Origin: a virus
Taxonomy: Duplodnaviria; Caudoviricetes
IMG/VR virus record: IMGVR_UViG_3300006105_001565
Location: 1-53,582 of that record
Length of the DNA stretch: 53,582 nucleotides
Strand: one strand, 5' to 3'
Shown here: positions 28,966 through 51,323 of the stretch, one piece after another
Layout of the letters: each line of letters starts with the position of its first letter
Position numbering within the stretch: position 1 is the stretch's first letter
Made by a program: the position numbers and the translations under genes
The notes under the pieces: model-generated
The model's database searches: none
The model's input: the letters and a program-made list of their open reading frames with translations, nothing else
What the model was told of the DNA's origin: nothing

Positions 28966-29201
28966 TGAGAAAGTTTCAATTTTTTAGAGGATACACTAAT
29001 GAATGGGTTAGTACTCAAGTAGTGGGTGGTATAAGACCTCTTAGAGCAATATGGTCACAAGAATTGATTACGGAATTAGATACATATCACGGAATCAATG
29101 CTGAAAATGAATTAATAAGTTTAATATCTAGAGAAATTTCAAGAGAAATTGATAATGAAATACTCAATACATTTATGTCAAATGTAATGGGTCAAGCATA
29201 A
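28965..29201 (+). CDS. Mini-protein resembling an internal segment of T4-type major capsid protein gp23
   Basis: RPLRAIWSQEL..ELDTYHGINAENELISLISREISREIDNEIL parallels the gp23 block RxLKAxxSxELAQDLxAxHGxDAExELxxILSxEIxxEIxRE. Confidence 0.7.
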   Translation: MRKFQFFRGYTNEWVSTQVVGGIRPLRAIWSQELITELDTYHGINAENELISLISREISREIDNEILNTFMSNVMGQA

Positions 29202-29210
29202 ATTAAAATT

Positions 29211-33121: not shown

Positions 33122-33684
33122 AAGTATTAATTATGGTCTTATCGTGTATGAAACATCCGTATGATAAGATGTATCAAGCACAATTAGAAACTTGGGATAG
33201 TGTTAAAGTTGATAATGTTGAAACTGTTTATTATTGGGGAGAAGAATATAAATTGATGCACGTTCCTTTTAAAAAATCGTTGAGTGAAGTATGGGATAAA
33301 GATTGGGATGTAATATTCAGAACTAATAGTAGTTCTTATGTTGACAAACAACTTTTATATGATTATATTAAGGACAAACCAAAGGAAAATCTTTGGATTG
33401 GAAATCAGGATGCTTATTGTTCAGGAGCAGGTTTTTTCATTAGTAGAGATTTAGCTGAAGTTTTAAAAAACGATTTACACGAAAGAAGATATTTTGCTGA
33501 AGATGTTTTAATATATGAAACATTGAAATCTCGTGGTTTTGAAATTAAACCTGGTCAGAGAAAAACATATGGTTTAGACAACGATTTAAATTCAACATAT
33601 CACATAAGATGTAAACACGATCACAATATGATATTAGCAGTTGATGCTTTCCATAATATATTCAAAGATAAAATTAAAAATTAA
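33118..33684 (+). CDS. GT31/galactosyltransferase-like protein
   Basis: RTNSSSYV, SGAGFFISRD, EDV, HIRCK. Confidence 0.65.
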   Translation: MKVLIMVLSCMKHPYDKMYQAQLETWDSVKVDNVETVYYWGEEYKLMHVPFKKSLSEVWDKDWDVIFRTNSSSYVDKQLLYDYIKDKPKENLWIGNQDAYCSGAGFFISRDLAEVLKNDLHERRYFAEDVLIYETLKSRGFEIKPGQRKTYGLDNDLNSTYHIRCKHDHNMILAVDAFHNIFKDKIKN

Positions 33685-34683: not shown

Positions 34684-35774
34684 GTTTTGTATTAGCAGTT
34701 TATAATAAATTAGAATTAACGAAAGAATGTTATAAACATCTTCGTAATGTTTATCCCAATGAACATTTGATTATTAGTAGTGGTGGTTCTAATGATGGAA
34801 CAAAAGAATGGTTACAATCATTAGATGATGATAATTTAACTTACGTTCACGACGATGATCGCTTATCTTTTTCTGACACATATAACAATGGAATATCCCT
34901 TGTTGATACTGAAAAGTTAGTATTAATACATAACGATATGGTCATTGGTGAGGGTTTCTTAGAAGCTATTGAAAGATTATTAACTGAAAATATGATATTA
35001 TCTTACACAACAGTTGAACCACCAATTTTTGCGGGTCATAAAAGACCAGGTAAAGTTATCATTGATTTAGGTAGAAACTTTGAAGATTTCGATATGTTAA
35101 ATTTCAACAATTACGTTCAACAACATAAAGATTCTAATGAATTATATGATGGTGCTGTGTTTTTTATGAGTGGCTATAAAAAATCCTTTGTTGACATTGG
35201 TGGATTTGATGGTTTCAGTTTCAATCCTTGTTTCTCTGAAGATGATGATTTTTTGATACGTGCAAAATTAAAAGGTTATACTTTAAAAACCTGTGATTCT
35301 GCAATAACTTATCATTTTGTTTCTTTAACCTCAAGATTTAGTGACGATACAAAAAACACTAGAACACAAATCGAATTAGATTCTAATAAAAATTTTATAA
35401 GGAAATGGGGTTTAATGATTAAAACATTCTATGATATGAATTATCAAACCAATGATAATTTTGAATATGTGAAATTGAGAATCGGTTTAGAGACTGATGA
35501 TATTAATGTATTAGAGCACATAGAACCATTTTTTGATGAAATTGATTTTAAAGGCGATCCAAGCACTTTTATCGAAAAAGAACAATCTCATACAAACTAC
35601 GATTTAAGTCTTAAATTTACCCCTATTGGTTATGTTAACGCTATGGTTTATCAAGATGGTAAATTAACTAATGAAGACTTCGATACTATTTCCAAAATAA
35701 GATTAATTATTCCCACATTAGACGAGGGCAAATATGAATTAGGTAATTTAAAAATAATAATAAAGGGGAATTAA
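34674..35774 (+). CDS. GT2 glycosyltransferase
   Basis: IHNDMV, IGGFD, EDDDF..R, YHFVS; GTG start overlapping upstream gene. Confidence 0.82.
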   Translation: MEISFVLAVYNKLELTKECYKHLRNVYPNEHLIISSGGSNDGTKEWLQSLDDDNLTYVHDDDRLSFSDTYNNGISLVDTEKLVLIHNDMVIGEGFLEAIERLLTENMILSYTTVEPPIFAGHKRPGKVIIDLGRNFEDFDMLNFNNYVQQHKDSNELYDGAVFFMSGYKKSFVDIGGFDGFSFNPCFSEDDDFLIRAKLKGYTLKTCDSAITYHFVSLTSRFSDDTKNTRTQIELDSNKNFIRKWGLMIKTFYDMNYQTNDNFEYVKLRIGLETDDINVLEHIEPFFDEIDFKGDPSTFIEKEQSHTNYDLSLKFTPIGYVNAMVYQDGKLTNEDFDTISKIRLIIPTLDEGKYELGNLKIIIKGN

Positions 35775-35788
35775 ATCCCCTTTTTTTT
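35762..35788. terminator. Terminator between convergent operons
   Basis: AAAGGGGA-ATTAAA-TCCCCTTT followed by a T-tract. Confidence 0.75.
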
Positions 35789-38513: not shown

Positions 38514-38515
38514 TT

Positions 38516-39184
38516 TTATCTTTTAGTTATTATGATTATACCGTTTAAAAAATTTAGGGATTCGATACCAGTTCCAATGTAATCGTAACCTTTTCTTATA
38601 AATTGAGGAATTAAACCATCCTCTCTTCTCCAATGAATTCCAAACTCTTCGTTCTCTTGATATTCACCGAAAAAATTTACTTCATCGGCAAGACCTTTGA
38701 AATATTCAATAGTTGAACCAGGTTTATATCTTCCACCACCGTAATTATCCCAATACGATGTTCCACAATCTTCAACGATGTAAGTGCCTTTCTCTTTAAG
38801 GGTTGGAAATAATTCTTTGAATGAAAAAATTACGTGTTCATTTATGTGTGAACCATCATCTATTATCAAATCAAATGGTCCGTGCTTCTCAACTACTCTT
38901 TTTAAAAATTCAGGATCGGTTTGGTCACCAATTTCAACATTAATACCATCTTGAGCATATTGAGCGCAATCGGGATTAATATCTATACCTGTTATTTGTG
39001 CTCTATAAAAATATTCTTTCCAAGTCTTTAATGAATCACCATCTAATACACCAATCTCTAAAAATTTGAATTCACTATATCTTTCGAATCCATTAATGTA
39101 CTTTGCATATTTGTCACAATAATTATGTACTTCAGAACTCTTATCAGTTCCATATTTTTTTGCTATTTCGTTTAAATTACTCAT
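38516..39184 (-). CDS. Class I SAM O-methyltransferase (MycE-like sugar methyltransferase)
   Basis: YGTDK..HNY, LEIGV, GDQ, IIDDGSH, YIVED. Confidence 0.82.
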   Translation of the reverse strand: MSNLNEIAKKYGTDKSSEVHNYCDKYAKYINGFERYSEFKFLEIGVLDGDSLKTWKEYFYRAQITGIDINPDCAQYAQDGINVEIGDQTDPEFLKRVVEKHGPFDLIIDDGSHINEHVIFSFKELFPTLKEKGTYIVEDCGTSYWDNYGGGRYKPGSTIEYFKGLADEVNFFGEYQENEEFGIHWRREDGLIPQFIRKGYDYIGTGIESLNFLNGIIIITKR

Positions 39185-41904
39185 CTTTTGAAATATAACA
39201 TTTGTAATTCGTTATCATTACCTAAGTATAATGTGTATGGTTGGAAACCTAATTTAACTAATCTTTCAACGAATGAATTTCTTAAATCGTCATTCTTATT
39301 GAAATGACCATTATGATATTCCATACCAATGTTTCTAACCTTCATTAAGTTTTTGTCACTTATACCTGTAAATGCTGCGTGTTCCGCTCCTTCGATATCA
39401 ACTTTTAAATAATCTATTTTAGTAATTAAACCTGTTTCAAATAGATAATTAAGAGTATAAGTTCTTACTGTGTAACTACCCCCACCAGTTCCCATAATAG
39501 TGGAACCGCCTAAGTGTGAGCTTTCATATAATTCAAGTTCACCTATTTCGTGTGCTGCAGCTGCATTAAATAATACTGAACGTGGATCGGCATTCAATGA
39601 TAATAGTTTAAAATATCTTCTATCAGGTTCAAAGGAAATAACTTTACTAGCGCCTTGACTATAGGCCCATCTATTAAAAATTCCAATATTACCACCCAAG
39701 TCAACAACAACATCACCTGGAAAGATTGCTCTTTCTCTATTTGGATGTTTATAATAATCTAATAGGTTATAAATTTCGTGATAGATTGCACGTGCCCATC
39801 CATATTGTCTAGCGATTTCAAGTGTTCCACCTTGTACACCTTTTATATCACCAAGGTTTTCTAATTTATAAACACTTGTATAAAATTGTTCTGATTGGTA
39901 GAATGATTTATCTCTTTTCATTTTAAGAAACTCCACCATTTTATCAGATATCTCAGCATTTTTGTTTCCGTGGAAATAAATAATTTTTGATTTGTCTTTA
40001 GGGATATATTGGTAGCCATAAACTCTATTAAAATTTTGTGGTCCTTCTTCATTCCAAAATCTATAAAATTCTTCTAATGTTCTATCCATAAATCCTTCGT
40101 CACCATCGAATGATGATGTGTCAAAATTTGATAATGGTAAATGTTTGTTATAACCATATTTCCATCTCATCGCATTATCAATACCTTCATCATTCCACCA
40201 ATATAATCTTTGATATTCTTCTTCACCTTTGTTTGTTATAACATCAACATAATGTTTGATGATTTCTTCAAACCACCATCCACATTTTTTATTATATGCA
40301 AAAAAACAAATGTGCATATATGGATTAACTTTATTGATATTCCATTCATTAGCTAATTCGGCATTGAAGAGTTGAGATACACCATAGTCATTAATTCCAA
40401 AAAATTCATCTTGAACGTGTATATCGGATAATGGATAATTTTCAATTGAATCGAAGTATTCTCTTACTTTATCTATGTTATGATTAACAACCACATCTCC
40501 GTCGATCCAAATCAAGTTATCGAAATCTTCATTAATTGATTCTAAACAAGCCATCTGTTTCCAATACCATTTATCATACTTAGAATACTTTACAGTATCT
40601 ATTCTTCTTTTTAAAACATTTGGATAATCAAACGGAACATCACAATCTATACCATAAACTAATATTTTTTGATTGGAAAATTCTAATAATGATTGTACTA
40701 ATTTTTCAATCACAGGCATATAACCAATATTACCAGTGGTAACAAACGCAAAAGGTTTGTTCTTTCTTTCTAATATTTCACAAGCGCCTCTTGCTATTTT
40801 ATCCCAATTGAAATTATCGTGAATTTCTTTTGCTTCGGCCATCGCTAAAACTTTATAAGCTAAATGATGATTGGAAACGTGTAACATTTTTTGACTTAAG
40901 TCATCCCAATCAGGCTCACAATAATGGCCAGTAAAATCTTTATGCTCTTTATTTGCAGGAATTAAACCTTGTATTTCAACAGGTATACCTTTACCTGCAG
41001 CAAATTCTAATTGACCACTCCAATTTGAATATATTGATGGTGTTCCACAAGACATCGCTTCAATTAATGGTAGATTCCATCCTTCACTACGAGCACAGGT
41101 AACAAACACATCTCCTTCTTGAAGATACTTTATGTAATCAGGACCACTTGTATATTTGATAAACTTTATGTTTGTATCATCGATACCGTGGAATTTTACT
41201 CTTTCTTCAGTTGTTTTCATTCCATCAAATGGATAAGGATTTTCAACTGACGCAATCAATTCAACATCATCTCTTCCTTTGAAAGTCTCGCCAAATGTTT
41301 TAAGAATTTCTGTGGTACCTTTTCTGTAATCCCATCTACCAAAATGTAAAAACCTAAATTTATTTTTCTTAGGTGTTTCCAAAATCGGTTTGAATCTTTC
41401 AACGTCAACACCTTCAGGAACTAAAAATATTTTTTCAGCAGGATATCCTTGTTTAATTAAATTATCAACCTGCCATTGAGATGGTAACCATACTTCATCA
41501 AAGTAATATAATCTCTTTAAAAAATCATCAGGATAAATGTCTGTTTCCCAAACGTTATATGCGATATTATAACCAACGTAATCGTCATAGAAATAAACAT
41601 TGTTCATCTCTGCAAGAACTATATTAACGTCAGGTTTGAAACTACCATCGTAACCATACATTGGGTGGTCAGTTCTACTACGATCGGCATTATATAATGT
41701 TTGAAGGATTAACATATCCTTCATTTCATCTGTAATGTAGGGTTCACCATCGTGTGGGGTATTATTCATACCTTTCCAACTATCACCAATGGTTAAATTC
41801 CTTACTTTAACTGTATGGTATTTATTAAGTGCGCAAAAGAAATCTTTGCAATGATTTGAATATCCTGTTTTACCAATAAACGGAACGTGTGCTAATATTT
41901 TCAT
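39181..41904 (-). CDS. Fusion: GT4 + GT-A-like domain + FkbM methyltransferase
   Basis: TGY, GRWDYRKG, EGWNLPLIEAM; WIDGD, NDE, FHGNK; DLGGNIG, FEP, KVDIEGAE. Confidence 0.85.
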   Translation of the reverse strand: MKILAHVPFIGKTGYSNHCKDFFCALNKYHTVKVRNLTIGDSWKGMNNTPHDGEPYITDEMKDMLILQTLYNADRSRTDHPMYGYDGSFKPDVNIVLAEMNNVYFYDDYVGYNIAYNVWETDIYPDDFLKRLYYFDEVWLPSQWQVDNLIKQGYPAEKIFLVPEGVDVERFKPILETPKKNKFRFLHFGRWDYRKGTTEILKTFGETFKGRDDVELIASVENPYPFDGMKTTEERVKFHGIDDTNIKFIKYTSGPDYIKYLQEGDVFVTCARSEGWNLPLIEAMSCGTPSIYSNWSGQLEFAAGKGIPVEIQGLIPANKEHKDFTGHYCEPDWDDLSQKMLHVSNHHLAYKVLAMAEAKEIHDNFNWDKIARGACEILERKNKPFAFVTTGNIGYMPVIEKLVQSLLEFSNQKILVYGIDCDVPFDYPNVLKRRIDTVKYSKYDKWYWKQMACLESINEDFDNLIWIDGDVVVNHNIDKVREYFDSIENYPLSDIHVQDEFFGINDYGVSQLFNAELANEWNINKVNPYMHICFFAYNKKCGWWFEEIIKHYVDVITNKGEEEYQRLYWWNDEGIDNAMRWKYGYNKHLPLSNFDTSSFDGDEGFMDRTLEEFYRFWNEEGPQNFNRVYGYQYIPKDKSKIIYFHGNKNAEISDKMVEFLKMKRDKSFYQSEQFYTSVYKLENLGDIKGVQGGTLEIARQYGWARAIYHEIYNLLDYYKHPNRERAIFPGDVVVDLGGNIGIFNRWAYSQGASKVISFEPDRRYFKLLSLNADPRSVLFNAAAAHEIGELELYESSHLGGSTIMGTGGGSYTVRTYTLNYLFETGLITKIDYLKVDIEGAEHAAFTGISDKNLMKVRNIGMEYHNGHFNKNDDLRNSFVERLVKLGFQPYTLYLGNDNELQMLYFKR

Positions 41905-41942: not shown

Positions 41943-43007
41943 TTAAACTATGGTTTTTTTTACATTAATAAACTCGTGTAAATTATGAAATTGTTGAGGT
42001 TCTTTCCATATTTTATTGAGTTCTTTCAAAAATTCAGAATATTCTGGATGTGATTTATCCCATACTTTTAATAACATATATTCACCTTCGCTCAAGTGGC
42101 CCCAATTTAGTATTTTACCAAAATACACATATGCTTTTTTATTGAAAATACTCTTCATTAAATCAAGAAAAATCTTCATCTCTTTGTAATTGTGTGATTG
42201 AACAACAAATGAAGTTTTAATGTTTTTTAATCTTGGTATTGTATTAATGAATTTCAGGTTTTCAATTAGTGTTTCCCATTTACCTCCTACCCTTGTTAAA
42301 TTTTCATAAGTTTCTTTGGTACCGGCGTCTATACTTATCTCACAAGTCTTAACGTATCTATGTATATTAGGCATACTATCCCACATTTCTTTGGTCCATA
42401 GTGAAGCGTTAGTATGTAAATGTATTTGTTCTAATTTTGGATATTTCTTCGGGTCAAAGTTTCTAAGGAAATTTCTAAAACTTACTGACGCAAAAGGGTC
42501 TCCTGTTCCTGTTATGTATAAGATTTTGATATTATTAGCATAGAATTCTTCTATTTCTTCAATAGTAGATGTAATTTCTTTTATCTCTTTACTATCGGCC
42601 ACAATCAACCCAATTCTACAAGATGGACATTTATAATTGCAAGATCGGTCAAATGAAAAATTAACCCATTGAGGTGTTGTGCTCATTTCACCAGTATCAT
42701 AATCGTAATCCTTTAAAATTTCTTGAGCCAAAGGTTTAGGTGCTATCGGCCCTAAATCACCGTTTTCTCCGAAATTAACCAATTGTGATAAGTGTGGACA
42801 TTCACTTTTATCACAATATTTGTAATCGCCGTCAATAATACTCTTTCTTATGTCTTTAGCTTCATTTGAATTCCAAACATCTTTCAATGGTACATCATTA
42901 GGTAATGCTTTTAAAAGCCAGCTTGGACAACACATATAACTCTCATTCTTATGAAGTTGTATATTTGTAAAAGGTAAAGCACATATATAATTCTTCAAAT
43001 CTATCAT
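41943..43007 (-). CDS. Radical SAM enzyme with N-terminal Cys-rich (twitch/SPASM-like) region
   Basis: CNYKCPSC, GDPF, HTNA, ISIDA; N-term CALPF, CCPSW, CDKSEC. Confidence 0.9.
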   Translation of the reverse strand: MIDLKNYICALPFTNIQLHKNESYMCCPSWLLKALPNDVPLKDVWNSNEAKDIRKSIIDGDYKYCDKSECPHLSQLVNFGENGDLGPIAPKPLAQEILKDYDYDTGEMSTTPQWVNFSFDRSCNYKCPSCRIGLIVADSKEIKEITSTIEEIEEFYANNIKILYITGTGDPFASVSFRNFLRNFDPKKYPKLEQIHLHTNASLWTKEMWDSMPNIHRYVKTCEISIDAGTKETYENLTRVGGKWETLIENLKFINTIPRLKNIKTSFVVQSHNYKEMKIFLDLMKSIFNKKAYVYFGKILNWGHLSEGEYMLLKVWDKSHPEYSEFLKELNKIWKEPQQFHNLHEFINVKKTIV

Positions 43008-43477
43008 ATCAAATTTTGTATTTTTTTAAAATTGAAATCTTTCCTCAAAAAACAAACTAAAGTGAATCTTTCACCACTATTCACCTTTTTAACATAATGC
43101 CATTCATTACCTGTTGTGTATAATAATTGTTTTTTTTTAGGCTTCACAGTTATGTTCTCATATATTAATTCGCCTCCATCAAAATTTTCATTTAAGAAAA
43201 TAATAAAAGTATATGGTTCTTTATCTTGATGAAACTTTTCAAGGATATTAGTGTCTTTATTTACGTGTTGAACTCTTATTCGATCGATATCAATTTTTAA
43301 TAAACCAATTCTTTTTAAGAATTTGAAGTCATTAATATTATCCATCAAATTAACACCATCAAAATGATATACATTATCAGAATTGATATTTATTTTTTTA
43401 TCAATATTAGCATAATAAAAATCTATGAATTCCGAACATTCATCATCTCTCATAATATCGGATAATATTTGTATCAT
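43004..43477 (-). CDS. 2OG-Fe(II) oxygenase
   Basis: HQD...LNENFDGGEL...HYV..V.SGER. Confidence 0.85.
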   Translation of the reverse strand: MIQILSDIMRDDECSEFIDFYYANIDKKININSDNVYHFDGVNLMDNINDFKFLKRIGLLKIDIDRIRVQHVNKDTNILEKFHQDKEPYTFIIFLNENFDGGELIYENITVKPKKKQLLYTTGNEWHYVKKVNSGERFTLVCFLRKDFNFKKIQNLI

Positions 43478-43968
43478 ATCAAAATTTTTGTTTTCAAATC
43501 GTAATTACAAAATACCGCAATAGACCATCTCACACCATCAATAACAGGTTTAACTCTATGTTCAATATTATGTAACATTATAACAATTGAATTCTCTTCG
43601 ACTTCAAAATTTTTAACTTCGTTATTTATAACACATTCTAATTCACCACCTTCAAAACTTTTCAGAGGATATATAACAAAAGACATATTAGTAGAATCTC
43701 TATGGTAATCATCATTCTTATTACTGTTATTGTCTACCATATTTAACCATACAGTATCTATAATAACTTCTTTACTGATATGTTTTTTTATTATGGTTTT
43801 TATTCTATTTTCAATATTTGTATTCAATGTTATTTTTTGTTTGAAATAATCGTTTCTTTTAATAAACTTTAAAAATATAGGGGATTCATCAACAATAAAA
43901 TTATCTATAATGTTTTTGAAATAGGAAAGCTCATCATTTGTGAAGACGTTATTTTCTTGAATAATCAT
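43474..43968 (-). CDS. 2OG-Fe(II) oxygenase
   Basis: HRD...FEGGEL...HRVKPV..GVR. Confidence 0.85.
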   Translation of the reverse strand: MIIQENNVFTNDELSYFKNIIDNFIVDESPIFLKFIKRNDYFKQKITLNTNIENRIKTIIKKHISKEVIIDTVWLNMVDNNSNKNDDYHRDSTNMSFVIYPLKSFEGGELECVINNEVKNFEVEENSIVIMLHNIEHRVKPVIDGVRWSIAVFCNYDLKTKILI

Positions 43969-44492
43969 TACATTAAGGATTTTTTCTTCTCACCTCTATT
44001 AGTTTTACAAAATACGGCTATACAATATCTAACACCTTCTTTTACTTTTATAACTCTATGTGGTGAATTATCAACAATCAATGCACACATATTTCTTTTT
44101 GGTTTGAGTGAATTGATTTTATTATTATCTATCCACTCTAAATCACCGCCAATAAAATCTTCATTAGGATATATTAGTAAAATAGCATCGTGCCCAATAT
44201 CTGTGTGGAAGGGATCGCTTTCATTAGTTCCTACAGTTACTACATTAACTCTACAATAATCAATTTTGATACCTTTATTATTAGGTAGCATTTCATCAAT
44301 TACGTTTATGATGTGTTGTTTGAAATTATCATTTAATTCGACGAATTGGGCATTATATTCATTGAAATAACTTTTATTTTCATTGGTTATAACAACAACT
44401 CCTCTTTTTTCATTTACAGTAAAATTTTCTACTATATTATCCATTTCGAATAACCCATCTTCATTGAATGCGTTTTCTTTAATTATGACCAT
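43968..44492 (-). CDS. 2OG-Fe(II) oxygenase
   Basis: HTD...FIGGDL...HRV.KV..GVR. Confidence 0.85.
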   Translation of the reverse strand: MVIIKENAFNEDGLFEMDNIVENFTVNEKRGVVVITNENKSYFNEYNAQFVELNDNFKQHIINVIDEMLPNNKGIKIDYCRVNVVTVGTNESDPFHTDIGHDAILLIYPNEDFIGGDLEWIDNNKINSLKPKRNMCALIVDNSPHRVIKVKEGVRYCIAVFCKTNRGEKKKSLM

Positions 44493-44496
44493 ATTA

Positions 44497-45561
44497 TTAA
44501 AATATTTTTTTATTCATTTTTATGTACTCGTGTAAATTATGGAATACATATCTATCGAAACATATTTTATTAAATTCTTCGATAAAATTCAAGTGTTCAG
44601 GGTGAGAAATATCGTGGATTTTATTTAACATAAATTGAGCTGGCGAATAAGAATTCCAATCTTGTAATCTACAAAAAAACACTTTACCCTTGTCTTTGAA
44701 AATGTCTTTAACCAAATCAACGAATGAACTCATTTCTTTATAATTAGACGATTGCACAACAAATGAACATTTCACACTTTTTAGTGATTTTATTGTAGAA
44801 ATAAACTTCAAATTATTGATGAGATTATCCCAATTACCACCAATTCTCGTATGATTTTCATAAGTATCTTTGGTCGCAGCATCTATACTTATTTCACAGG
44901 TCTTAACATATTTGTGTATGTTAGGCATAGTATTCCACATCTTTTCATTCCATAAACTTGCATTCGTATGTAAATGAATGTACCTTAACTTAGGATATTT
45001 TTTTGGATTAAAATTTTGAAAGTATTCTCTAATTGGTTTAGAAAAAAATGGGTCACCAGTTGTTGAGGAATATAACATCTCAATTGAATCTGCAAAAATG
45101 TTTTCAACTTCAATTATTTTATCTCTGAATCTCGGTATTTCCTTTTTATCCGAAACAAATAATTCACTTCTACAAGATGGACATTTATAATTGCAGCTTG
45201 GATCGAAATTTAGTTGTACATTAGTTGGACCTTCTTGCATTTCACCTTCTTGAGAGTCGTAATATTTCTTTATGTTGGCCGGTAAATCTTTTTTATGGAT
45301 AATTGGTCCAATATAACCACCATTCAAATTAACTAATTCAGCTAAATAAGGGCAAGATTTTCTATCGCAATAACGATAAGAACCATCAATTACTGATTTT
45401 CTTATGTCTATAATTTCTTTGGAATTCCAAGTTTGATTTAATGTTTCTTTATTTGGGATTTCTTTAGTTAACCAATGCGGACAACAAACCCAATTTTCCT
45501 TTTCGTGTATTTGAAGATGTTGAAAAGGAACTAAACATATGTAATTTTTTAAATCGACCAT
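44497..45561 (-). CDS. Radical SAM enzyme, paralog of 41943-43007
   Basis: CNYKCPSC, GDPF, HTNA, VKTCEISIDA; same 354-aa length. Confidence 0.9.
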   Translation of the reverse strand: MVDLKNYICLVPFQHLQIHEKENWVCCPHWLTKEIPNKETLNQTWNSKEIIDIRKSVIDGSYRYCDRKSCPYLAELVNLNGGYIGPIIHKKDLPANIKKYYDSQEGEMQEGPTNVQLNFDPSCNYKCPSCRSELFVSDKKEIPRFRDKIIEVENIFADSIEMLYSSTTGDPFFSKPIREYFQNFNPKKYPKLRYIHLHTNASLWNEKMWNTMPNIHKYVKTCEISIDAATKDTYENHTRIGGNWDNLINNLKFISTIKSLKSVKCSFVVQSSNYKEMSSFVDLVKDIFKDKGKVFFCRLQDWNSYSPAQFMLNKIHDISHPEHLNFIEEFNKICFDRYVFHNLHEYIKMNKKIF

Positions 45562-46109
45562 TATATTAATGAGGGCTTAGATGTGATAATATCTGTGGAA
45601 TGTAAAAATATAATAAATGAATTTCTTTCTCCCCTTTCAATAACCTCAACTTTGTGGTCTGTTTCAGGAGAATAAATCATACAAGTCCCTTGTTTCCTAT
45701 TCATAATATATTCTTTATCGTCAATCCAATATTTGTAATCGCCACCGATATAGTCTTTAGAATCATTCAATTGCACTGCACAAGTAAATAATCTACTATC
45801 ATAATCATCTTTATGTTTGTAAATGAAACAACCTTCAGTGTATTTTATAATAGTACAATTGATTTTATCTTTTTTCAAAACATAACCTAACTTATTAAAT
45901 AGATTATTGAATTTATCGAATAAATGAGACCCTTTTTCTAAATGAAAATCAGATTGTATAGATTTTCTTTTTCTATTATCAACAACATTTTTTTGAGTAT
46001 AGGTGTCTCCAATTTTGATTGTGAACCCTGATTCATACCACTCTAAATTAGAATTTAAAATAAATTCACATTCTTCTTTATCTAATAAAACATCATTATA
46101 AAAAATCAT
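45561..46109 (-). CDS. 2OG-Fe(II) oxygenase (prolyl-4-hydroxylase-like)
   Basis: RKS..., KY..G..HKD, LND..DY.GG, HKV..I..GER. Confidence 0.85.
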   Translation of the reverse strand: MIFYNDVLLDKEECEFILNSNLEWYESGFTIKIGDTYTQKNVVDNRKRKSIQSDFHLEKGSHLFDKFNNLFNKLGYVLKKDKINCTIIKYTEGCFIYKHKDDYDSRLFTCAVQLNDSKDYIGGDYKYWIDDKEYIMNRKQGTCMIYSPETDHKVEVIERGERNSFIIFLHSTDIITSKPSLI

Positions 46110-46112
46110 ACA

Positions 46113-46262
46113 TTATGAATGTTTGTTTACCATATATTTGATAAAATTCGTAACGATTGTTTTTACTTGAGTTTTTTGTGGGTCGGTAAGTGGTGTTAGC
46201 GTTCTATTTTTAGAATCAGCTAATGATATTGTTTTATATACCGGTTTACTAGGTGCTGCCAT
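46113..46262 (-). CDS. Small 49-aa protein (not in ORF track)
   Basis: MAAPSKPVYKTISLADSKNRTLTPLTDPQKTQVKTIVTNFIKYMVNKHS; 8 nt after the upstream stop, 3 nt before the next ATG. Confidence 0.75.
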   Translation of the reverse strand: MAAPSKPVYKTISLADSKNRTLTPLTDPQKTQVKTIVTNFIKYMVNKHS

Positions 46263-46270: not shown

Positions 46271-48178
46271 TTATTTATTATGTACTAATATATTATTAGC
46301 AAAAAAGTTATGGTTATCTTGAACCGTTATGATATATGTTTGTGTATCTTCTGGTTTTAACACTCTAATTTCTTTAATTGCTGTTTGACCGCCAGTTGCT
46401 AATCTTACTAAATCACCTAATTGGATTTTCTTAACATCCTTGTCGATTTTGTATCTATTATTTGTCCATTCAGGTATAAATGATGCTAAACCTAAACCAT
46501 TCACATAGATAGGATGGTCGAAAGTACAAGTTAATTGTGTATCATTTGAGAATGTATACGTCACCAAATCATTATGTACAGGTGAATTCAATCCGATCAC
46601 TTTTTTTGGTTCTATCATTAATGTATTTTCATTGTAAGAAAGAACTTCATCACCTTCCTCAATTTCTTCTATATTTTTTGTTGAACCACCTTCCAATGTT
46701 ACTTTAGTTCCCGCAACAAAACAAGTTCCTAAGTTGTGAGTGATGAAAAATGACATAAAATTACCACTCTCCAAAATGAAGTTATCGTATGGGTCCATAC
46801 TTGGAATGTAATATGTTTGTTGGTCATCATAAATTAAAACATCAATTGATGTAATTTGATTTGAGAAACTACTTTCTCCTAATACTGAGTAACCTAATTC
46901 CAAATCTAATGCTCTCACAAATCTTGTTTCATCTGTGGTTGGGTTGTAAACTAACATTTGCGTTTCTCCACCAACTTCAATGTCGCTACCGTCAGCAAAT
47001 GTGATATAAGTTCCGTCATTTGCATATGATTGATTAGTATATAAAGCTACACAAGTTGAACCAGTTTGGAATGAACCGGATGGTAATGTGTTACCTGTGA
47101 AGAAGTATGTATCTAATAAATCGTAATTATCTGTTTCAGGAATACCTTCAATATGATAAGATTGGTATTCATCACCAATTACTAAGTTAGTAACAGAAAT
47201 TGAATTACCACTTATATCAAGTATGTATTCATTATCTAATATACCGTGTGCACTATTCTTAATGTGGTTTGTTGCAAATTCATAATAATGCTTGGAATCG
47301 ATTAAATTATTTATAACACTATCATCATAATTTATGGATGTTGGTAGTGTGAATAAAGAATCAATTTGATATTGAGAAACATAACAAAGTTGTAAACCAC
47401 TGTCATCAATAGAGGTTGCTGTTTCGCTACCACTATCTACACTATCAGCAGCTCCTGTTACGTTGTAAACAATTTGGAAGCTACGAATACTGTTAACTGT
47501 ATTGTTTGTTATCTGTGACTGATCGATATGGTATTGTTCAATCATTGTATCAGGCGTTGCAACTGTGTTTATAAATTCATTATATCTATCTAATGAGCCT
47601 GAAATTGAATTACCTATCTTATAAAATTGATGTGGCTGGTGTAATTCCAAAACCGTTTTAGTAACAACATCAGGTAAAACATCACCATTGAAAATGGTTG
47701 TGTCTAAAGTATTGTAATTACCATAAAGAGAGGATGAATGATAGAATGCTGTAACTGAATTACTATCTGAATTATCAGCAAATAACTTTAACGTATTCAA
47801 TGTTCCTTTTGCATATTCAGAATCTAAAATAGCTGTTTCATCATATGCCATTCTCAATATGAACTTATTCGGAGCATCATCTGGTGAAGTTGGAAAAATT
47901 GAACTCTCAGGAACTACTATAGGGTTAAATGTCGTAATGAAAGAAGCTGAATCAATTAAAGATTGGGATAAATGGTTGATTATAGGTTGTTGAAGTTCTA
48001 TTTTATATAGAACGTCCAATTCCGTAATATTTGAACCGCTGAGTACTCCTATGAAGTCGCTCCAGTCAAAGGATGACATTTGCGATTCTACAGCACCGGT
48101 ATCAGTATTTATCTCAATTAATCTTAAATTCTCATTTTTATCAATTACAAAATCCGCAGAAAAAAAAGTTCCTTTCAT
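46271..48178 (-). CDS. Circularly permuted ATP-grasp-like domain fused to two tandem Hint domains
   Basis: N-term SADFVID...LRLIEINTDTG; Hint2 CFVAGT...TFDHP...LVHN (aa 486-634); degenerate Hint1 aa 312-482 ending ITHN. Confidence 0.75.
   Translation of the reverse strand: MKGTFFSADFVIDKNENLRLIEINTDTGAVESQMSSFDWSDFIGVLSGSNITELDVLYKIELQQPIINHLSQSLIDSASFITTFNPIVVPESSIFPTSPDDAPNKFILRMAYDETAILDSEYAKGTLNTLKLFADNSDSNSVTAFYHSSSLYGNYNTLDTTIFNGDVLPDVVTKTVLELHQPHQFYKIGNSISGSLDRYNEFINTVATPDTMIEQYHIDQSQITNNTVNSIRSFQIVYNVTGAADSVDSGSETATSIDDSGLQLCYVSQYQIDSLFTLPTSINYDDSVINNLIDSKHYYEFATNHIKNSAHGILDNEYILDISGNSISVTNLVIGDEYQSYHIEGIPETDNYDLLDTYFFTGNTLPSGSFQTGSTCVALYTNQSYANDGTYITFADGSDIEVGGETQMLVYNPTTDETRFVRALDLELGYSVLGESSFSNQITSIDVLIYDDQQTYYIPSMDPYDNFILESGNFMSFFITHNLGTCFVAGTKVTLEGGSTKNIEEIEEGDEVLSYNENTLMIEPKKVIGLNSPVHNDLVTYTFSNDTQLTCTFDHPIYVNGLGLASFIPEWTNNRYKIDKDVKKIQLGDLVRLATGGQTAIKEIRVLKPEDTQTYIITVQDNHNFFANNILVHNK
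46277..46723 (-). other. Hint domain 2 (intact Cys1, TxxH, terminal HN, +1 Lys)
   Basis: CFVAGTKV...IEEGDEVLSY; LTCTFDHP; TYIITVQDNHNFFANNILVHN. Confidence 0.92.
46733..47245 (-). other. Hint domain 1 (Gly at position 1, no TxxH, terminal HN retained)
   Basis: GILDNEYILDISGNSISVTNLVIGDEYQSY aligns without gaps to the Hint2 start; YITFADGS; FVRALDLELG; ends FFITHN. Confidence 0.7.
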
Positions 48179-48208: not shown

Positions 48209-49051
48209 CTAAAATAATTCTTTTTTGGAAGCGTTTTTCAAAATATAGTCGGTTGGGACAACTGGATTCTTATACTTCTGAGGACCACAATAATGATGAT
48301 AAAAATCACCCTTTTTACCTAATTCGTGACATAAATGGGAAGTTGTGAACCCATAGTGGTTCCCTATCAAAGTTAAAAGATATTGAGCGCCAACCATTGT
48401 AGCATAAAATGGGTCTATTTCCGCGATGTGTTCTTTTATGAAAGATTCATATTTCTTCCATTTTTCAACATACAAATCCTTAAATTTTTCGTTTTTTATA
48501 TATAAAAGGCCAATATTCATCACCGGTATTCTTTCACCCGACCATTCTGGTATCAAATCTTTTATCCTCATCTCAGTCAGATTTTTAACTGTTTTTTTAT
48601 ATTGTCCATTCCAAGTAACATATTCAAACGAATCAAAAACTATGTCAGGTGTGTTTATCTTAGTAATTGTGTCGATTGTAGGTTTATATTCCTTTGACCA
48701 GTTGAGATGTTCAAATGAGTCGAAAACAACGTCAGAATCTAATTGTGGTAATTTTTTGTGGATTATTAAATCGCCATCTATTAAACAAAAATCATCATTT
48801 CTTTCTGAGAGAACTTTAATTTTAAAATGATCCCATAAAGGTGAATTCAAATAACCTTCAGTTACGATTATCTCATCTGCGATGTTCTCAAAATATTTTA
48901 CAGAATTGATATCAACATAGATTATAGTATGATAACCAAATTTTTTTGCCTCAGTAATTGATAATATATAATAATTAATTAATATGGTTTGTTTCTCTTT
49001 ACTTGGGTTTTGTAAATTAACTTTGCTATCATATGTCCAAATTAGTTTCAT
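48209..49051 (-). CDS. GT-A-like protein (DGD family, paralog 1)
   Basis: MKLIWTY, LSI..AK.FG, WDHFK, LIDGD, NIG.L, AQYLL, HYCG..K. Confidence 0.7.
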   Translation of the reverse strand: MKLIWTYDSKVNLQNPSKEKQTILINYYILSITEAKKFGYHTIIYVDINSVKYFENIADEIIVTEGYLNSPLWDHFKIKVLSERNDDFCLIDGDLIIHKKLPQLDSDVVFDSFEHLNWSKEYKPTIDTITKINTPDIVFDSFEYVTWNGQYKKTVKNLTEMRIKDLIPEWSGERIPVMNIGLLYIKNEKFKDLYVEKWKKYESFIKEHIAEIDPFYATMVGAQYLLTLIGNHYGFTTSHLCHELGKKGDFYHHYCGPQKYKNPVVPTDYILKNASKKELF

Positions 49052-49819
49052 TTATATAATTGTTTTTTTTAACATATCATCTATATTATTAAATCGAGGT
49101 CTAAGGTGTTTCATTTCGGGGTCCTTATCACTATAAAATGTGTGTCCAATTAATCTCATCTGTAAGCTATCTCTATTGTTATTAAATCTCGTATTCATTA
49201 AAGCAATGCTCATTAATAAACCTTCAGCTCTTCCAGTTGGAACGTTTCCGTATTCCATATCATTTTCAATTGCAAGGTCTTTAAGTTTATCATAGAAATC
49301 GAAAAATTCATCCATATATTCCGATTTTCTAATCAGAAAAATAGATTCGTGTATTGGTGTAGCTTTATCAATTTCATAATTATTTTTTCTACAATAATCC
49401 TCTAATTTTTTGAAGTAATTATCTTTTGGCATATGTTCATAATACATCCAACCCATTCTCCACCAAAAAAAATAATGGAAACCTGGTTCAAATGAAAGAG
49501 TTTTATATAAATTAAAATCTATCAAACAATCAACATCCAAATAAAGTACTGTATCGTGTTTTTCCAATGCTATTTTACATATCTCTAATTTATCTGAATA
49601 AGATGGTATATCTTTTTCATATTTAAAAACATTGATATTGAAACTTTCAAATATCTCTGGATTATCTGTCAAAAGGTATATTTCAAAATCTGTTTCTTCT
49701 TTCAATTTTTTTATCAAATTGAGTGCGTGATTATAATATGAATCATCTCTTTTTTTATGTATAACTCCTCCCCCCATTTTATCAGTAGAAAAACAAAATA
49801 AAGAAATTACCTTTTCCAT
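49052..49819 (-). CDS. GT-A-like protein
   Basis: LLTD, SDK, YLDVD, EG motifs. Confidence 0.6.
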   Translation of the reverse strand: MEKVISLFCFSTDKMGGGVIHKKRDDSYYNHALNLIKKLKEETDFEIYLLTDNPEIFESFNINVFKYEKDIPSYSDKLEICKIALEKHDTVLYLDVDCLIDFNLYKTLSFEPGFHYFFWWRMGWMYYEHMPKDNYFKKLEDYCRKNNYEIDKATPIHESIFLIRKSEYMDEFFDFYDKLKDLAIENDMEYGNVPTGRAEGLLMSIALMNTRFNNNRDSLQMRLIGHTFYSDKDPEMKHLRPRFNNIDDMLKKTII

Positions 49820-50568
49820 TATATAAAAATTTTAGATTGAAATTGAATTATGTGAGTAGATGGAACTGGAGGCGATTGGTATTTAATATTCCCTACATAG
49901 TGTTTATAATAGTTATTTTTCTCTGAAAATTTTTCAGACATACAAGTTGGTGTGATATTATTTTTTTCACATAAAAGACCTAACAAATATTGAGCACCCA
50001 TACAAGCCCTATTTTTATTTGAAAGATGTTCTTTGTTTTTATATATAAAATCACCATATTTTTTAAATCTATCAAGATAAAGCATTCTGAAGTCACGATC
50101 CTTTATGTAAAGAAAACCTGTATTAATAATTGGTGTTTTTTTATTTTCCCATTCGGGAATTAAATCTTTTATTTTCAAATTAGTTAATTCCTCAACATTC
50201 AACGCATATTCCACTTCCCAAGAATTATATTCTATAGCATCAATGTACATTTCATTATTTAACTCAGGTAATTTGGTTTCTAATATAATGTCACCATCAA
50301 TTAACGCAAAATCGTTTTTTTCGTTCTCTAAAGCAGATATTTTAAAACCATCCCATAAAAGTGTTTTATTAGATGGGTTCAAAATGTACACTTCGTCTGC
50401 TAAATTATAAAAGTGTTTTGAAGATTCTAAATCGGTATATATAACCGTGTAATGCCCATATTTTTTTGCTCTTGATATTGAAAGGATATAAAAATTCAGC
50501 ATAAGAATTTTTTTACTCTCATCATTAATAGTGGGTGGGTTACTGTTATATGTCCAAACTAATCTCAT
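49819..50568 (-). CDS. GT-A-like protein (DGD family, paralog 2)
   Basis: MRLVWTY, IYTD, WDGFK, LIDGD, NTGF, AQYLL, HYVG..K. Confidence 0.7.
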   Translation of the reverse strand: MRLVWTYNSNPPTINDESKKILMLNFYILSISRAKKYGHYTVIYTDLESSKHFYNLADEVYILNPSNKTLLWDGFKISALENEKNDFALIDGDIILETKLPELNNEMYIDAIEYNSWEVEYALNVEELTNLKIKDLIPEWENKKTPIINTGFLYIKDRDFRMLYLDRFKKYGDFIYKNKEHLSNKNRACMGAQYLLGLLCEKNNITPTCMSEKFSEKNNYYKHYVGNIKYQSPPVPSTHIIQFQSKIFI

Positions 50569-51323
50569 ATCATCGATTTTTGATTATTCGATCCCAACAA
50601 ATAATTATCAGGTACTAATGGGGTAATAAATTTTGTGTGTCCAACATAATGTGTATAGTATTTTCCTTTTTTTGCAAATCCGTCGGACATACTAATAGGT
50701 TTTATGTTGAAAACTTCACATAATAAAGACAAAAGTAATTGACTAGTAAAACTAGCAGAATTTTTATCAGTTAGTTTATCTTTATTATCCGACACAAATT
50801 GACCATATTTTTTCCATCTATCTATATATGTTTCTAAAAAGTTTTTATTTTTTATATGTAAAAATCCGTTATTCATAATAGGTAACTTTTTATTACTCCA
50901 TTCGGGTAAAATATTTTTAATCCCTAAATTTGTTAATTCTATAACGGTGTTTTCATAATCATTTTTCCAAGAACCGAATTCAAATGCGTCAACATATAAT
51001 TCCTCAGTTAACAACGGCAATTTGCTGTGTAAAATTATATCACCATCAATAAGGGCATAATCATCCGTTTCCCTTTCCATCGCAACTATTTTGAAATCGT
51101 CCCATAATATTTCATAATCATAACCTTCAATTATGTGCATTTCATCAACAATATCTTTGAAATATTTTTCAGAAAACGAATCAGTATAAATTATGGTTTT
51201 ATAACCAAATTCTTTGGCTTTCAATATTGATAATATATAATAATTGATTCTGATAATGGTTTTATCCTTCTCAGTTTCTTTTATATGTAAAGGGTTGCTC
51301 TTATATGTCCAAACCAATCTCAT
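50565..51323 (-). CDS. GT-A-like protein (DGD family, paralog 3)
   Basis: MRLVWTY, IYTD, WDDFK, LIDGD, NNGF, HYVG..K. Confidence 0.7.
   Translation of the reverse strand: MRLVWTYKSNPLHIKETEKDKTIIRINYYILSILKAKEFGYKTIIYTDSFSEKYFKDIVDEMHIIEGYDYEILWDDFKIVAMERETDDYALIDGDIILHSKLPLLTEELYVDAFEFGSWKNDYENTVIELTNLGIKNILPEWSNKKLPIMNNGFLHIKNKNFLETYIDRWKKYGQFVSDNKDKLTDKNSASFTSQLLLSLLCEVFNIKPISMSDGFAKKGKYYTHYVGHTKFITPLVPDNYLLGSNNQKSMI

What the first reader, a model, noticed from the sequence alone, without database searches (positions are those of the whole stretch)
46271..48178. ATP-grasp-like ligase fused to two complementary Hint domains bracketing a tripeptide (HN-LGT-CF)
Seen: the C-terminal Hint (aa 486-634) has Cys1, block-B TFDH and terminal HN. 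A second, hidden Hint (aa 312-482) lies just before it. Its first 30 residues align without gaps to Hint2 (G..GDE..SY), it has lost Cys1 and TxxH, and it keeps terminal HN. Only Leu-Gly-Thr separates the two. The N-terminus (SADFVID..LRLIEINTDTG, later VVTK and IEQY) resembles glutathionylspermidine-synthase-type circularly permuted ATP-grasp ligases. Known: HN drives C-terminal cleavage by Asn cyclisation; Cys1 plus TxxH forms an N-terminal thioester, as in Hedgehog and bacterial intein-like domains. Inference: Hint1 cuts only at its C-end and Hint2 activates its N-end. That would give a free-amine LGT thioester next to an amide ligase, i.e. a self-processing peptide-tagging or ribosomal micro-peptide synthetase. 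Alternatively Hint2 attaches the whole upstream protein to a virion or glycan nucleophile. I know no description of this architecture.
Basis: partly seen in the sequence, partly recalled or inferred. Interest (0 to 1): 0.92.

Follow-up and report, generated by a model that had tools for sequence, protein, structure and literature searches.

The report
Phage ligase with self-cutting Hint tail

Summary
ORF 46271-48178 (-) has an intact C-terminal Hint: Cys486, TFDH, HN, then Lys and stop. It also has a hidden degenerate Hint (aa ~308-482). Profile-profile comparison of the two Hints gives probability 98%, E 1e-13. The N-terminus carries the D..E-x-N-T-D-T motif of glutathionylspermidine-synthetase-type ATP-grasp ligases; this part is supported but not proven.

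LGT is one of many linkers, 0-14 aa in most members: none in 22 of 219, AP 31, LGS 29, LGT once. It is a spacer, not a conserved product. Two Hints flanking a cargo is already described in ciliate BUBL proteins, whose BIL2 is the closest solved structure.

The constant core is ligase domain + degenerate Hint ending in His-Asn (213 of 219) + a tail with a Lys near its end. Intact Hints number 0-4 and were gained or lost often. Other members carry short or six-cysteine tails.

A ~47-aa gene (window 46113-46262) follows the enzyme gene in 159 of 161 related loci, plus two further Hint-less loci checked by eye.

Best reading: a self-processing ligase working with this small protein. All chemistry is inferred. 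The structure and complex predictors were unavailable.

The parts
46271..48178 (-). Whole ORF, 635 aa plus stop: ligase-like domain, degenerate Hint, linker, intact Hint, Lys
   Evidence: The family has at least 747 proteins at E<=0.001 among 8000 scored candidates and 218 clusters at 50% identity for aa 1-310.
47258..48178 (-). N-domain, aa 1-307: probable GspS/YgiC-like ATP-grasp carboxylate-amine ligase. It starts directly at the D9..E22-x-N24-T-D-T strand.
   Evidence: hhalign against a 36-sequence GspS-family profile: probability 74.1, E 2.8e-5, aa 8-77 against YgiC 101-169. Shuffled controls reach at most probability 0.8. Neighbours of the Atlas model include GSP_synth, GSH_synth_ATP and CP_ATPgrasp_2 clusters at TM 0.52-0.57. 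Conservation among 111 non-redundant members: D9 100%, E22 99%, N24 98%, R109 99%, K174 94%, K187 88%, R232 98%.
46733..47257 (-). Degenerate Hint (dHint), aa 308-482. Gly replaces Cys1, there is no TxxH, and it ends in H481-N482.
   Evidence: hhalign against the Hint2 profile: probability 98.1, E 1.3e-13. PDB hits from a profile of Hint-less members. HN present in 213 of 219 members.
46724..46732 (-). Linker Leu-Gly-Thr, aa 483-485
   Evidence: Read. Variable across the family: none in 22 of 219; AP 31, LGS 29, LGT 1 of 191 parsed.
46277..46723 (-). Intact type-A BIL-like Hint, aa 486-634: Cys486, T552-x-x-H555, H633-N634
   Evidence: Pfam Intein_splicing and PT-HINT above their cut-offs. PDB: 6tmm/6y75 E 1.9e-21, 2lwy E 1.8e-13. 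Family statistics.
46274..46276 (-). Lys635, the +1 residue after the last His-Asn and the last residue of the protein
   Evidence: The +1 residue is Lys in 209 and Arg in 46 of 266 intact Hints. It is Lys in 173 of 177 terminal Hints. A Lys lies within the last 5 residues in 207 of 219 members, against about 0.23 expected from composition.
46113..46262 (-). Conserved small gene, 49 aa. It starts 8 nt after the enzyme's stop and ends 3 nt before the next start. It has an invariant Tyr-Lys near the N-terminus and ends in Lys-His-Ser.
   Evidence: An equivalent ORF is present in 80 of 81 loci, in 79 of 80 loci of the Cys-rich-tail subfamily, and after two Hint-less members. Alignment A6. 201 database clusters, none with a function name or a Pfam match.
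45561..46109 (-). 2OG-Fe(II) oxygenase (PF13640), the next gene. It is a frequent but not universal neighbour.
   Evidence: Pfam E 2.4e-6. It is the next ORF of 70 aa or more in 54 of 81 loci. In the Cys-rich subfamily it was found within 1.5 kb in only 4 loci downstream and 14 upstream, out of 80.

Best explanation
The ORF encodes a self-processing enzyme of an uncultivated freshwater jumbo phage. It works together with the small protein encoded directly downstream.

Shown:
1. aa 1-~305 carry the Mg-binding D..E-x-N-T-D-T motif and the K, K, Q-x-Y/F, R order of glutathionylspermidine-synthetase-type ATP-grasp ligases.
2. aa ~308-482 are a Hint homologue that has lost Cys1 and TxxH but keeps the terminal His-Asn.
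3. aa 486-634 are a complete type-A BIL-like Hint followed by one Lys.
4. The constant core of the family is parts 1 and 2, a tail with a Lys near its end, and a ~47-aa gene immediately downstream.
5. Intact Hints are facultative: 0-4 copies, often gained or lost.

Inferred:
- The intact Hint removes itself. It forms a thioester at Thr485-Cys486, and Asn634 cyclises. An amine of Lys635 may capture the thioester, as proposed for type-A BILs and for BUBL BIL2. That would leave a tail ...HN-LGT-K, which resembles the short Lys-bearing tails of Hint-less members.
- The degenerate Hint then performs the chemistry common to the whole family: cyclisation of Asn482 sheds whatever lies downstream (a short tail, a six-cysteine peptide, or Hints).
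- The ligase domain joins a carboxylate to an amine, using ATP. The most likely partners are the small protein and the Lys-bearing tail. Which supplies the carboxylate is unknown.

LGT is a spacer, not a product.
For: Both Hints:
- In the HMM-based count, 197 of 219 members hold at least one intact Hint, 295 domains in all. Cys1 is present in 279 of 279, HN in 265 of 266, and the +1 residue is Lys or Arg in 255 of 266, with no Cys or Ser and 2 Thr among those listed.
- The dHint HN is present in 213 of 219 members. That includes the 13 members whose tail after it is 20 aa or shorter: 11 of them end 1-10 aa after the aligned HN, and in the other two the alignment slipped there (P0206, which has an HN two residues downstream, and P0207).

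Ligase domain:
- hhalign gives probability 74.1 and E 2.8e-5, against at most 0.8 in 20 shuffles.
- Sub-threshold Pfam hits: GSP_synth in 2 of 45 and 1 of 29 members, ATPgrasp_ST in 1 of 45.
- Atlas structural neighbours are GSP_synth, GSH_synth_ATP and CP_ATPgrasp_2 clusters at TM 0.52-0.57.
- Atlas feature hits for a 39%-identical member are ATP-grasp families at 0.86-0.88.
- Conserved D9, E22, N24, K174, K187, Y/F216 and R232 follow the order R-x-D, E-x-N, K, K, Q, R given for trypanothione synthetase (PMC2427367, passages).

Facultative Hints: on a FastTree of the core, the number of Hints changes at least 28 times and presence/absence at least 10 times among 107 labelled members.

Lys near the C-terminus: 207 of 219 and 77 of 80.

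Small gene: 80 of 81 and 79 of 80 loci, plus two Hint-less loci. Tyr9 is invariant; Lys10 and His48 are conserved at 90% or more. 108 of 120 database members end in K-H-x.

Mechanistic precedent: type-A BIL splicing by attack of an amine (PMC4031507, passages), and the Lys isopeptide formed by BUBL BIL2 (PMC8616854, passages).
Against: - No chemistry has been observed.
- The ATP-grasp assignment fails every curated Pfam and NCBIfam cut-off. hhalign covers only 67 columns, and a forced extension carries no confidence. HMMER against PDB finds no ATP-grasp chain at E<=10.
- The Arg two residues before the first Asp (Arg328 in trypanothione synthetase) is Ser, Gly, Ala or Thr here, never Arg.
- The Atlas model is poor (pTM 0.39, pLDDT 0.58), and all its named neighbours were flagged as under the bar.
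- 42 of 89 internal Hints have Arg, not Lys, at +1. Capture by a Lys side chain therefore cannot be general.
- 197 of 219 members keep at least one intact Hint with perfect motifs. That fits a selected function as well as it fits a tolerated insert.
- If Asn482 cleaves anyway, removal of the downstream Hints beforehand seems unnecessary.
- The role of the small protein rests on adjacency alone.
Confidence: 0.45

Rival explanations
1. Hint1 cuts at Asn482 and Hint2 forms a thioester at Cys486. The bracketed peptide is released as a free-amine thioester. It could then cyclise, become a diketopiperazine where the linker is an X-Pro dipeptide, or be ligated by the adjacent enzyme.
For: - Both sets of catalytic residues needed are conserved.
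- The commonest linker is the dipeptide AP (31 of 191), with SP in 9.
- One member (P0241) has a six-cysteine segment of about 28 aa between the HN and an intact Hint.
- The ligase family it resembles acts on a tripeptide carboxylate (PMC2427367).
- BUBL proteins show that flanking BILs can activate a cargo.
Against: - 22 of 219 members have no linker.
- Linker length and sequence are not conserved, and LGT occurs once.
- 17 of 107 labelled members have no intact Hint, and 71 of 80 loci of the second subfamily end in a Cys-rich tail with no Hint after it.
- The yield would be one small peptide per 635-aa protein.
Confidence: 0.12
2. Hedgehog/BUBL-like transfer. The thioester at Cys486 is resolved by an external nucleophile, such as a Lys of the small protein, of a virion protein or of a host protein, or a glycan or lipid. 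The ligase-dHint protein is thereby attached covalently to that target.
For: - The closest solved structure is BUBL BIL2, which forms Lys isopeptides with other proteins.
- The small protein has a Lys conserved at 90% or more, next to an invariant Tyr.
- The window is rich in glycosyltransferases.
Against: - Hint-less and Cys-rich-tail members keep the small gene, so the partnership does not need a thioester.
- Tandem arrays of 2-4 Hints (71 of 219) have no role in this model.
- The conserved +1 Lys/Arg and the dHint HN are left unexplained.
Confidence: 0.15
3. The intact Hints are merely tolerated selfish or neutral intein-like inserts with no role. The N-domain may not be an enzyme; it could be a structural or virion protein with self-removing C-terminal folding modules.
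For: - Hint number is labile.
- One member carries a Peptidase_S74 chaperone-like tail instead (E 0.0035, 1 of 29; tail printed). That module is known from phage tail fibres (recalled).
- No curated ATP-grasp model passes its cut-off.
Against: - The Hints have no room for a homing endonuclease (domains of about 149 aa).
- Near-invariant polar residues of the kind expected in an active site are found in the N-domain.
- The conserved dHint HN and the conserved small partner gene argue for chemistry rather than scaffolding.
- No PHROG structural family matches.
Confidence: 0.15

Closest known systems
Type-A bacterial intein-like (BIL) domains (Amitai 2003 and Dassa 2004, as cited in PMC4031507)
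   Same: Cys1, block-B TxxH, C-terminal His-Asn, no Cys/Ser/Thr at +1, no homing endonuclease. PDB 2lwy (a BIL domain) matches at E 1.8e-13.
   Different: Here the domain sits at the extreme C-terminus, followed by a single Lys. It often forms tandem arrays of 2-4 separated by 1-7 aa. It lies downstream of a degenerate Hint in a phage ligase-like protein. The +1 residue is Lys or Arg in 96% of domains.
Tetrahymena BUBL locus, BIL2 domain (PDB 6Y75/6TMM)
   Same: It is the best solved match to Hint2, E 1.9e-21. Intein-like domains flank a cargo and activate its C-terminus. A Lys amine resolves the thioester (PMC8616854).
   Different: The cargo there is a ubiquitin-like domain; here the gap is 0-6 aa in most members. 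The first Hint here is degenerate. Here an ATP-dependent ligase domain is present, whereas BUBL is described as ATP-independent.
Glutathionylspermidine/trypanothione synthetase family (E. coli Gss, YgiC, YjfC; Pfam GSP_synth)
   Same: D-x12-E-x-N-(A/T)-D-T motif with a preceding basic residue (K112 in YgiC, R/K19 here). The order is Mg triad first, then Lys, Lys, Gln-x-aromatic, Arg.
   Different: The ~100-aa region that precedes the motif in YgiC is missing. Ser replaces the Arg two residues before the Asp. The ATP-side subdomain is smaller. Every hit is below the curated cut-offs. It is fused to Hint domains.
Engineered twin-intein systems: a C-terminal-cleaving intein followed by a thioester-forming intein (recalled, not checked in a call)
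   Same: The arrangement is the same: a Cys1-less, Asn-cleaving Hint is followed by a thioester-forming Hint.
   Different: That design is man-made and brackets a chosen peptide. Here the bracketed stretch is variable and often absent.
Small-protein conjugation by carboxylate-amine ligases (Pup with PafA) and scaffold-peptide natural products (recalled analogies only)
   Same: A small, separately encoded protein with a conserved C-terminus lies next to an amide-forming ligase.
   Different: There is no sequence relationship. The ligase fold differs from PafA. The self-cleaving Hint has no counterpart in those systems.

Membership tests
Hint superfamily, type-A BIL (aa 486-634) | Match to curated Hint/intein profiles above their cut-offs | tested here: met
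   Intein_splicing 46.9 bits against 35.8; PT-HINT 34.2 against 27.7. PDB BIL chains at E 1.9e-21 and 1.8e-13.
Hint superfamily, type-A BIL (aa 486-634) | Cys/Ser at position 1, block-B TxxH, C-terminal His-Asn | tested here: met
   C486, T552/H555 and H633/N634 are invariant in A1. Across the family, Cys1 is present in 279 of 279 domains and HN in 265 of 266.
Hint superfamily, type-A BIL (aa 486-634) | No nucleophile at +1 (this separates BILs from true inteins) | tested here: met
   The +1 residue is K in 209, R in 46, F in 4, A in 3, Y in 2 and T in 2 of 266.
Hint superfamily, type-A BIL (aa 486-634) | Autocatalytic cleavage or splicing | not testable with these tools
   This needs expression and mass spectrometry.
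True (mobile) intein | Cys/Ser/Thr at +1, insertion in a conserved site of a host protein, often a homing endonuclease | tested here: not met
   The +1 residue is Lys. The domain is terminal, not inserted in a conserved motif. Domains of about 149 aa leave no room for an endonuclease.
Hint fold (degenerate domain, aa 308-482) | Homology to Hint domains over the whole domain | tested here: met
   hhalign probability 98.1, E 1.3e-13, 138 columns, with controls. A profile of Hint-less members hits 6y75 and 2jmz at E 0.002-0.003.
Hint fold (degenerate domain, aa 308-482) | N-terminal nucleophile and TxxH | tested here: not met
   Gly312 (91% Gly) stands at position 1. Nothing aligns with T-x-x-H.
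Hint fold (degenerate domain, aa 308-482) | C-terminal His-Asn for Asn cyclisation | tested here: met
   213 of 219 members. H481 95% and N482 97% among 111 non-redundant members.
ATP-grasp, GspS-like (Pfam GSP_synth / CP_ATPgrasp) | Match to a curated family model above its cut-off | tested here: not met
   The best results are GSP_synth at E 0.0021 in 2 of 45 members and ATPgrasp_ST at E 0.016-0.06. NCBIfam gives nothing.
ATP-grasp, GspS-like (Pfam GSP_synth / CP_ATPgrasp) | Mg-binding Asp ... Glu-x-Asn triad | tested here: met
   D9 100%, E22 99%, N24 98%. They align to YgiC D102/E115/N117. The role of the equivalent residues is described in PMC2427367.
ATP-grasp, GspS-like (Pfam GSP_synth / CP_ATPgrasp) | Arg two residues before the first Asp, and two phosphate-binding Lys | tested here: inconclusive
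   The Arg position is Ser, Gly, Ala or Thr (not met). K174 (94%) and K187 (88%) are candidates by order only. hhalign does not align this part.
ATP-grasp, GspS-like (Pfam GSP_synth / CP_ATPgrasp) | ATP-grasp three-dimensional fold | tested here: inconclusive
BUBL-like cargo bracketed by two BILs | A folded cargo domain between two processing Hints | tested here: not met
   The gap is 0-6 aa in most members and 3 aa here.

The most novel reading that the evidence does not exclude
The enzyme and the ~47-aa protein form a previously undescribed phage conjugation or peptide-maturation system that needs no other component. The GspS-like ligase joins the small protein to the Lys-bearing C-terminal tail of the enzyme itself. 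The degenerate Hint then acts as a built-in, single-use 'asparagine lyase' that releases the product. In the Cys-rich subfamily the product would be a six-cysteine peptide of about 30 aa, so a ribosomal peptide would have a whole enzyme plus a Hint as its 'leader'. Intact BIL domains would be optional thioester-supplying or self-removing add-ons.
Probability: 0.25. Interest if true: 0.9.

Novelty: new variant of a known kind. Interest (0 to 1): 0.72.

Why it matters
Hint domains are known as inteins, Hedgehog processing domains, BILs and pretoxin modules. A widespread Hint that has kept only the C-terminal Asn-cyclisation half, fused to a ligase-like domain, would be a natural counterpart of the engineered C-terminal-cleaving inteins used in biotechnology.

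The family is large. It has 218 clusters at 50% identity. It sits on viral contigs up to 334 kb from many metagenomes, and none of 50,697 deposited phage records holds the N-terminal part.

It always travels with an unannotated small protein. That makes the hypothesis directly testable: co-express two genes and look for ATP-dependent joining and self-cleavage.

If confirmed, it would add a new way for phages to make or attach peptides, and new self-cleaving parts for protein engineering.

Tried and rejected

Complex prediction (enzyme aa 1-485 with the small protein) could not be reached in six identical tries. There is no result of any kind.

The Atlas did not hold P0128. As its message suggested, I used a stored homologue, P0100, which had no model.

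HMMER of family profiles against PDB found no ATP-grasp chain at E<=10.

hhalign of A4 against YgiC alone gave probability 6. A 15-sequence GspS profile gave 31. Only the 36-sequence profile reached 74. Forcing the alignment over the whole domain gave no confident columns.

I considered that the ORF is the 3' part of a split ATP-grasp gene. I rejected this because the family's N-terminus (M-K-G-T...) is conserved from residue 1, and the upstream gene is a DUF6734 paralogue.

I considered that dHint is a class-2-like intein that uses a +1 Cys. Only 22 of 219 members have Cys directly after the HN, and TxxH is absent. Rejected.

tblastn of the protein against deposited phages found only the intact Hint: 14 records, all covering aa 486-634 only. 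The rSAM neighbour found none.

The search for related loci with A3 failed because no stretch was conserved enough; I used A1 instead. With P0253 and with P0230 it found nothing; alignment A7 worked.

A search for longer or fused forms of the small protein found none, which is weak evidence. A local HMM search for the small protein inside the enzymes found none.

No RNA holder was listed for the region. 24 freshwater DNA runs hold it.

Literature. Five searches were answered. They looked for BIL/Hint + phage + ATP-grasp, BUBL, amidoligase, circularly permuted ATP-grasp, and tandem Hint with C-terminal cleavage. None returned a paper that describes this architecture. I read passages of PMC4031507, PMC8616854, PMC7824862 and PMC2427367. 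PMC3268129 (Iyer 2009), the paper most likely to bear on permuted ATP-grasp ligases, is not held, so priority there is unchecked. Supplementary files were not consulted.
Full report
What is there. The window is an IMG/VR virus record of 53,582 bases, about 30% G+C, estimated 16% complete. Related contigs reach 323-334 kb, so this is a jumbo phage. Its DNA occurs in 24 freshwater metagenome runs. ORF 46271..48178 on the minus strand encodes 635 aa.

The intact Hint. Pfam places only the C-terminal part in known families: Intein_splicing, PT-HINT and AXH, all above their cut-offs, over aa ~486-634. Cys486, T552-F-D-H555, H633-N634 and a final Lys635 can be read in the translation. A family profile matches solved Hint structures. 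[quoted passage not shown] The identity of 6Y75/6TMM comes from passages of PMC8616854.

The hidden Hint. aa 312-482 and aa 486-635 give two weak collinear BLASTP matches. I cut family alignments for the two regions out of 219 homologues and compared them. hhalign gives probability 98.1, E 1.3e-13, over 138 columns from the first strand to the terminal His-Asn, with one ~23-aa insertion in Hint1. The N-domain profile against Hint2 gives probability 0.1. Twenty column-shuffled Hint1 profiles give at most 0.4. A profile made only from members that lack an intact Hint hits 6y75 (E 0.002) and the Methanococcus KlbA intein 2jmz (E 0.0028) in this region, among nanobody noise at higher E-values. Position 1 is Gly and TxxH is absent.

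The N-domain. No curated model passes its cut-off. Several independent weak signals point to an ATP-grasp ligase of the glutathionylspermidine-synthetase type:
- ATPgrasp_ST aligns aa 6-34 to the end of its profile (E 0.016-0.06).
- GSP_synth is hit by 2 of 45 and 1 of 29 members.
- I built a 36-sequence GspS-family profile from E. coli YgiC, YjfC and Gss and from loci of other genomes. hhalign aligns aa 8-77 to YgiC 101-169 at probability 74.1, E 2.8e-5, against at most 0.8 in 20 shuffles.
- The structural neighbours of the Atlas's own low-confidence model include GSP_synth, eukaryotic glutathione synthetase and circularly permuted ATP-grasp clusters at TM 0.52-0.57 over ~230 residues.
- Language-model features of a 39%-identical member point to ATP-grasp families at 0.86-0.88.
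- Among 111 members below 60% identity, D9, E22, N24, T25, R109, D119 and R232 are 98-100% conserved, K174 94% and K187 88%.
- The order is Asp, Glu-x-Asn, Lys, Lys, Gln-x-aromatic, Arg. This matches the residues listed for trypanothione synthetase: Asp330, Glu344, Asn346, Lys513, Lys548, Gln583, Arg613 (PMC2427367).

Against this: the Arg two residues before the Asp is never Arg here, the alignment does not extend past ~70 columns, and I could not fold the protein. I put the ATP-grasp reading at about 0.75.

The protein is not a fragment. The family N-terminus is conserved from Met1.

The family changes the picture.
- aa 1-310 match 218 clusters at 50% identity. The whole protein matches at least 747 database proteins. 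None lies in a deposited phage genome.
- The His-Asn that ends the degenerate Hint is present in 213 of 219 members. What follows it varies.
- By an HMM-based count, 197 of 219 members have 1-4 intact Hints, 295 in all. Each has Cys1 (279 of 279) and His-Asn (265 of 266). Each is followed by Lys (209) or Arg (46) and never by Cys or Ser.
- Others stop 1-10 aa after the His-Asn, carry a six-cysteine tail of about 30 aa, or, in one case, a Peptidase_S74-like module.
- A second scan found a large subfamily in which 71 of 80 loci have the six-cysteine tail directly after the His-Asn.
- The spacer between the His-Asn and the first Cys1 is absent in 22 of 219. Among 191 parsed members it is AP in 31, LGS in 29 and LGT only once.
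- On a FastTree of the constant part, the number of intact Hints changes at least 28 times and presence/absence at least 10 times among 107 labelled members; shuffled labels give 11-17 for presence/absence. This is a quick tree and an unrooted parsimony count, so the numbers are rough.
- One feature survives all this variation. A Lys lies within the last five residues in 207 of 219 members, against about 0.23 expected, and in 77 of 80. In Hint-bearing members this is the +1 Lys.

A partner gene. The 161-nt 'gap' after the ORF holds a 49-aa ORF at 46113..46262. It starts 8 nt after the stop and ends 3 nt before the next start. An equivalent ORF of 43-53 aa follows the enzyme gene in 80 of 81 loci. 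It also follows in 79 of 80 loci of the second subfamily; the one miss is a locus that ends 136 nt after the gene. It follows two Hint-less members as well. In the window's subfamily Tyr9 is invariant, Lys10 and His48 are conserved at 90% or more, and the protein ends in K-H-S/L/M/T. 108 of 120 database members end in K-H-x. The family has 201 database clusters, with no function name and no Pfam match. No fused form was found, which is weak evidence. The next gene after it is a PF13640 2OG-Fe(II) oxygenase in 54 of 81 loci, and twitch-type radical SAM genes are common nearby. This link does not hold in the second subfamily.

How it most likely works. The homologies, the conserved residues and the synteny are shown. 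Everything below is inferred.
- The intact Hint is a type-A BIL. Such domains form an N-terminal thioester and cleave their C-terminus by Asn cyclisation. The freed amine of the C-flank can attack the thioester and join the flanks, although cleavage dominates (PMC4031507). BUBL BIL2, the closest structure, resolves its thioester with a Lys side chain (PMC8616854).
- With an almost invariant Lys at +1, the simplest reading is that the Hint removes itself and leaves ...His-Asn-LGT-Lys. That tail resembles the short Lys-bearing tails of Hint-less members.
- The degenerate Hint, the only Hint common to all members, would then cut after Asn482 and release the tail.
- The ligase domain would use ATP to join a carboxylate and an amine. 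The always-adjacent small protein and the always-present tail Lys are the obvious candidates.

Weak points: half of the internal Hints have Arg at +1. Removal of the Hint before a cut at Asn482 looks redundant. The retention of intact Hints in 90% of members suggests that they do something useful.

Verdict. The specific idea of a tripeptide LGT thioester is not supported, and the claim that the principle is undescribed overlooks BUBL. The architecture is a GspS-like ligase domain, a Hint that only cleaves its C-terminus, optional BIL arrays and an obligatory small partner. I found it in no paper: five full-text searches were answered, and one key paper was not held. I file it as a new variant of known kinds. 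There is a real chance, about 0.25, that it is a new conjugation or peptide-release system.

Noticed in passing
L199-L276 (for example L212 1501-2988) and proteins P0238, P0245, P0253, P0258, P0265: A large subfamily ends, directly after the degenerate Hint's His-Asn, in an aromatic-rich tail of about 30 aa with six Cys (C-x-C-x5-C-x3-C-x4-C-x2-C) and a final Lys plus 0-3 residues. This holds in 71 of 80 loci. It looks like a releasable cysteine-rich peptide.
   Followed up: partly
protein P0230; loci L202, L203 and L205 (581-aa members): One member carries a Peptidase_S74 (endosialidase chaperone)-like module after the His-Asn instead of a Hint (E 0.0035). The 581-aa members have yet another, unexamined C-terminal domain.
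   Followed up: no
several family proteins listed: Four enzyme family members end in ...K-H-L, the same ending as the small partner protein. They also carry a different C-terminal Hint-like domain with an S-G-L-G-D-N motif. A local HMM search found no similarity to the small protein. Unexplained.
   Followed up: partly
window 41943-46109 (-): An alternating array of four small 2OG-Fe(II) oxygenase genes and two 354-aa twitch-type radical SAM genes lies directly downstream of the small ORF.
   Followed up: partly
window 48209-51323 (-): Three paralogous DUF6734-like genes with a D-x-D-like motif stand in a row upstream of the ORF, interleaved with unannotated ~255-aa genes.
   Followed up: no
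window 9388-10605 (-): A thymidylate-synthase-family ORF of 405 aa matches the 266-position Pfam profile over aa 26-404. It therefore carries more than 100 extra residues: an insertion, or possibly a hydroxymethylase-type variant.
   Followed up: no
window 2475-5467 (-): A NAPRTase-family gene (544 aa) lies near a PRPP-synthetase/phosphoribosyltransferase-like gene (289 aa). This suggests a phage NAD salvage pair.
   Followed up: no
window 26351-35774 (+) and 35787-41904 (-): A block on the opposite strand holds glycosyltransferases and an NAD-dependent epimerase. It is followed by two ~907-aa proteins that combine methyltransferase and glycosyltransferase domains. Sugar or glycan modification capacity is unusually large.
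   Followed up: no
window 24448-25815 (-): Two adjacent DNA methyltransferase genes (PHROG hits at E 3e-31 and 6e-61).
   Followed up: no
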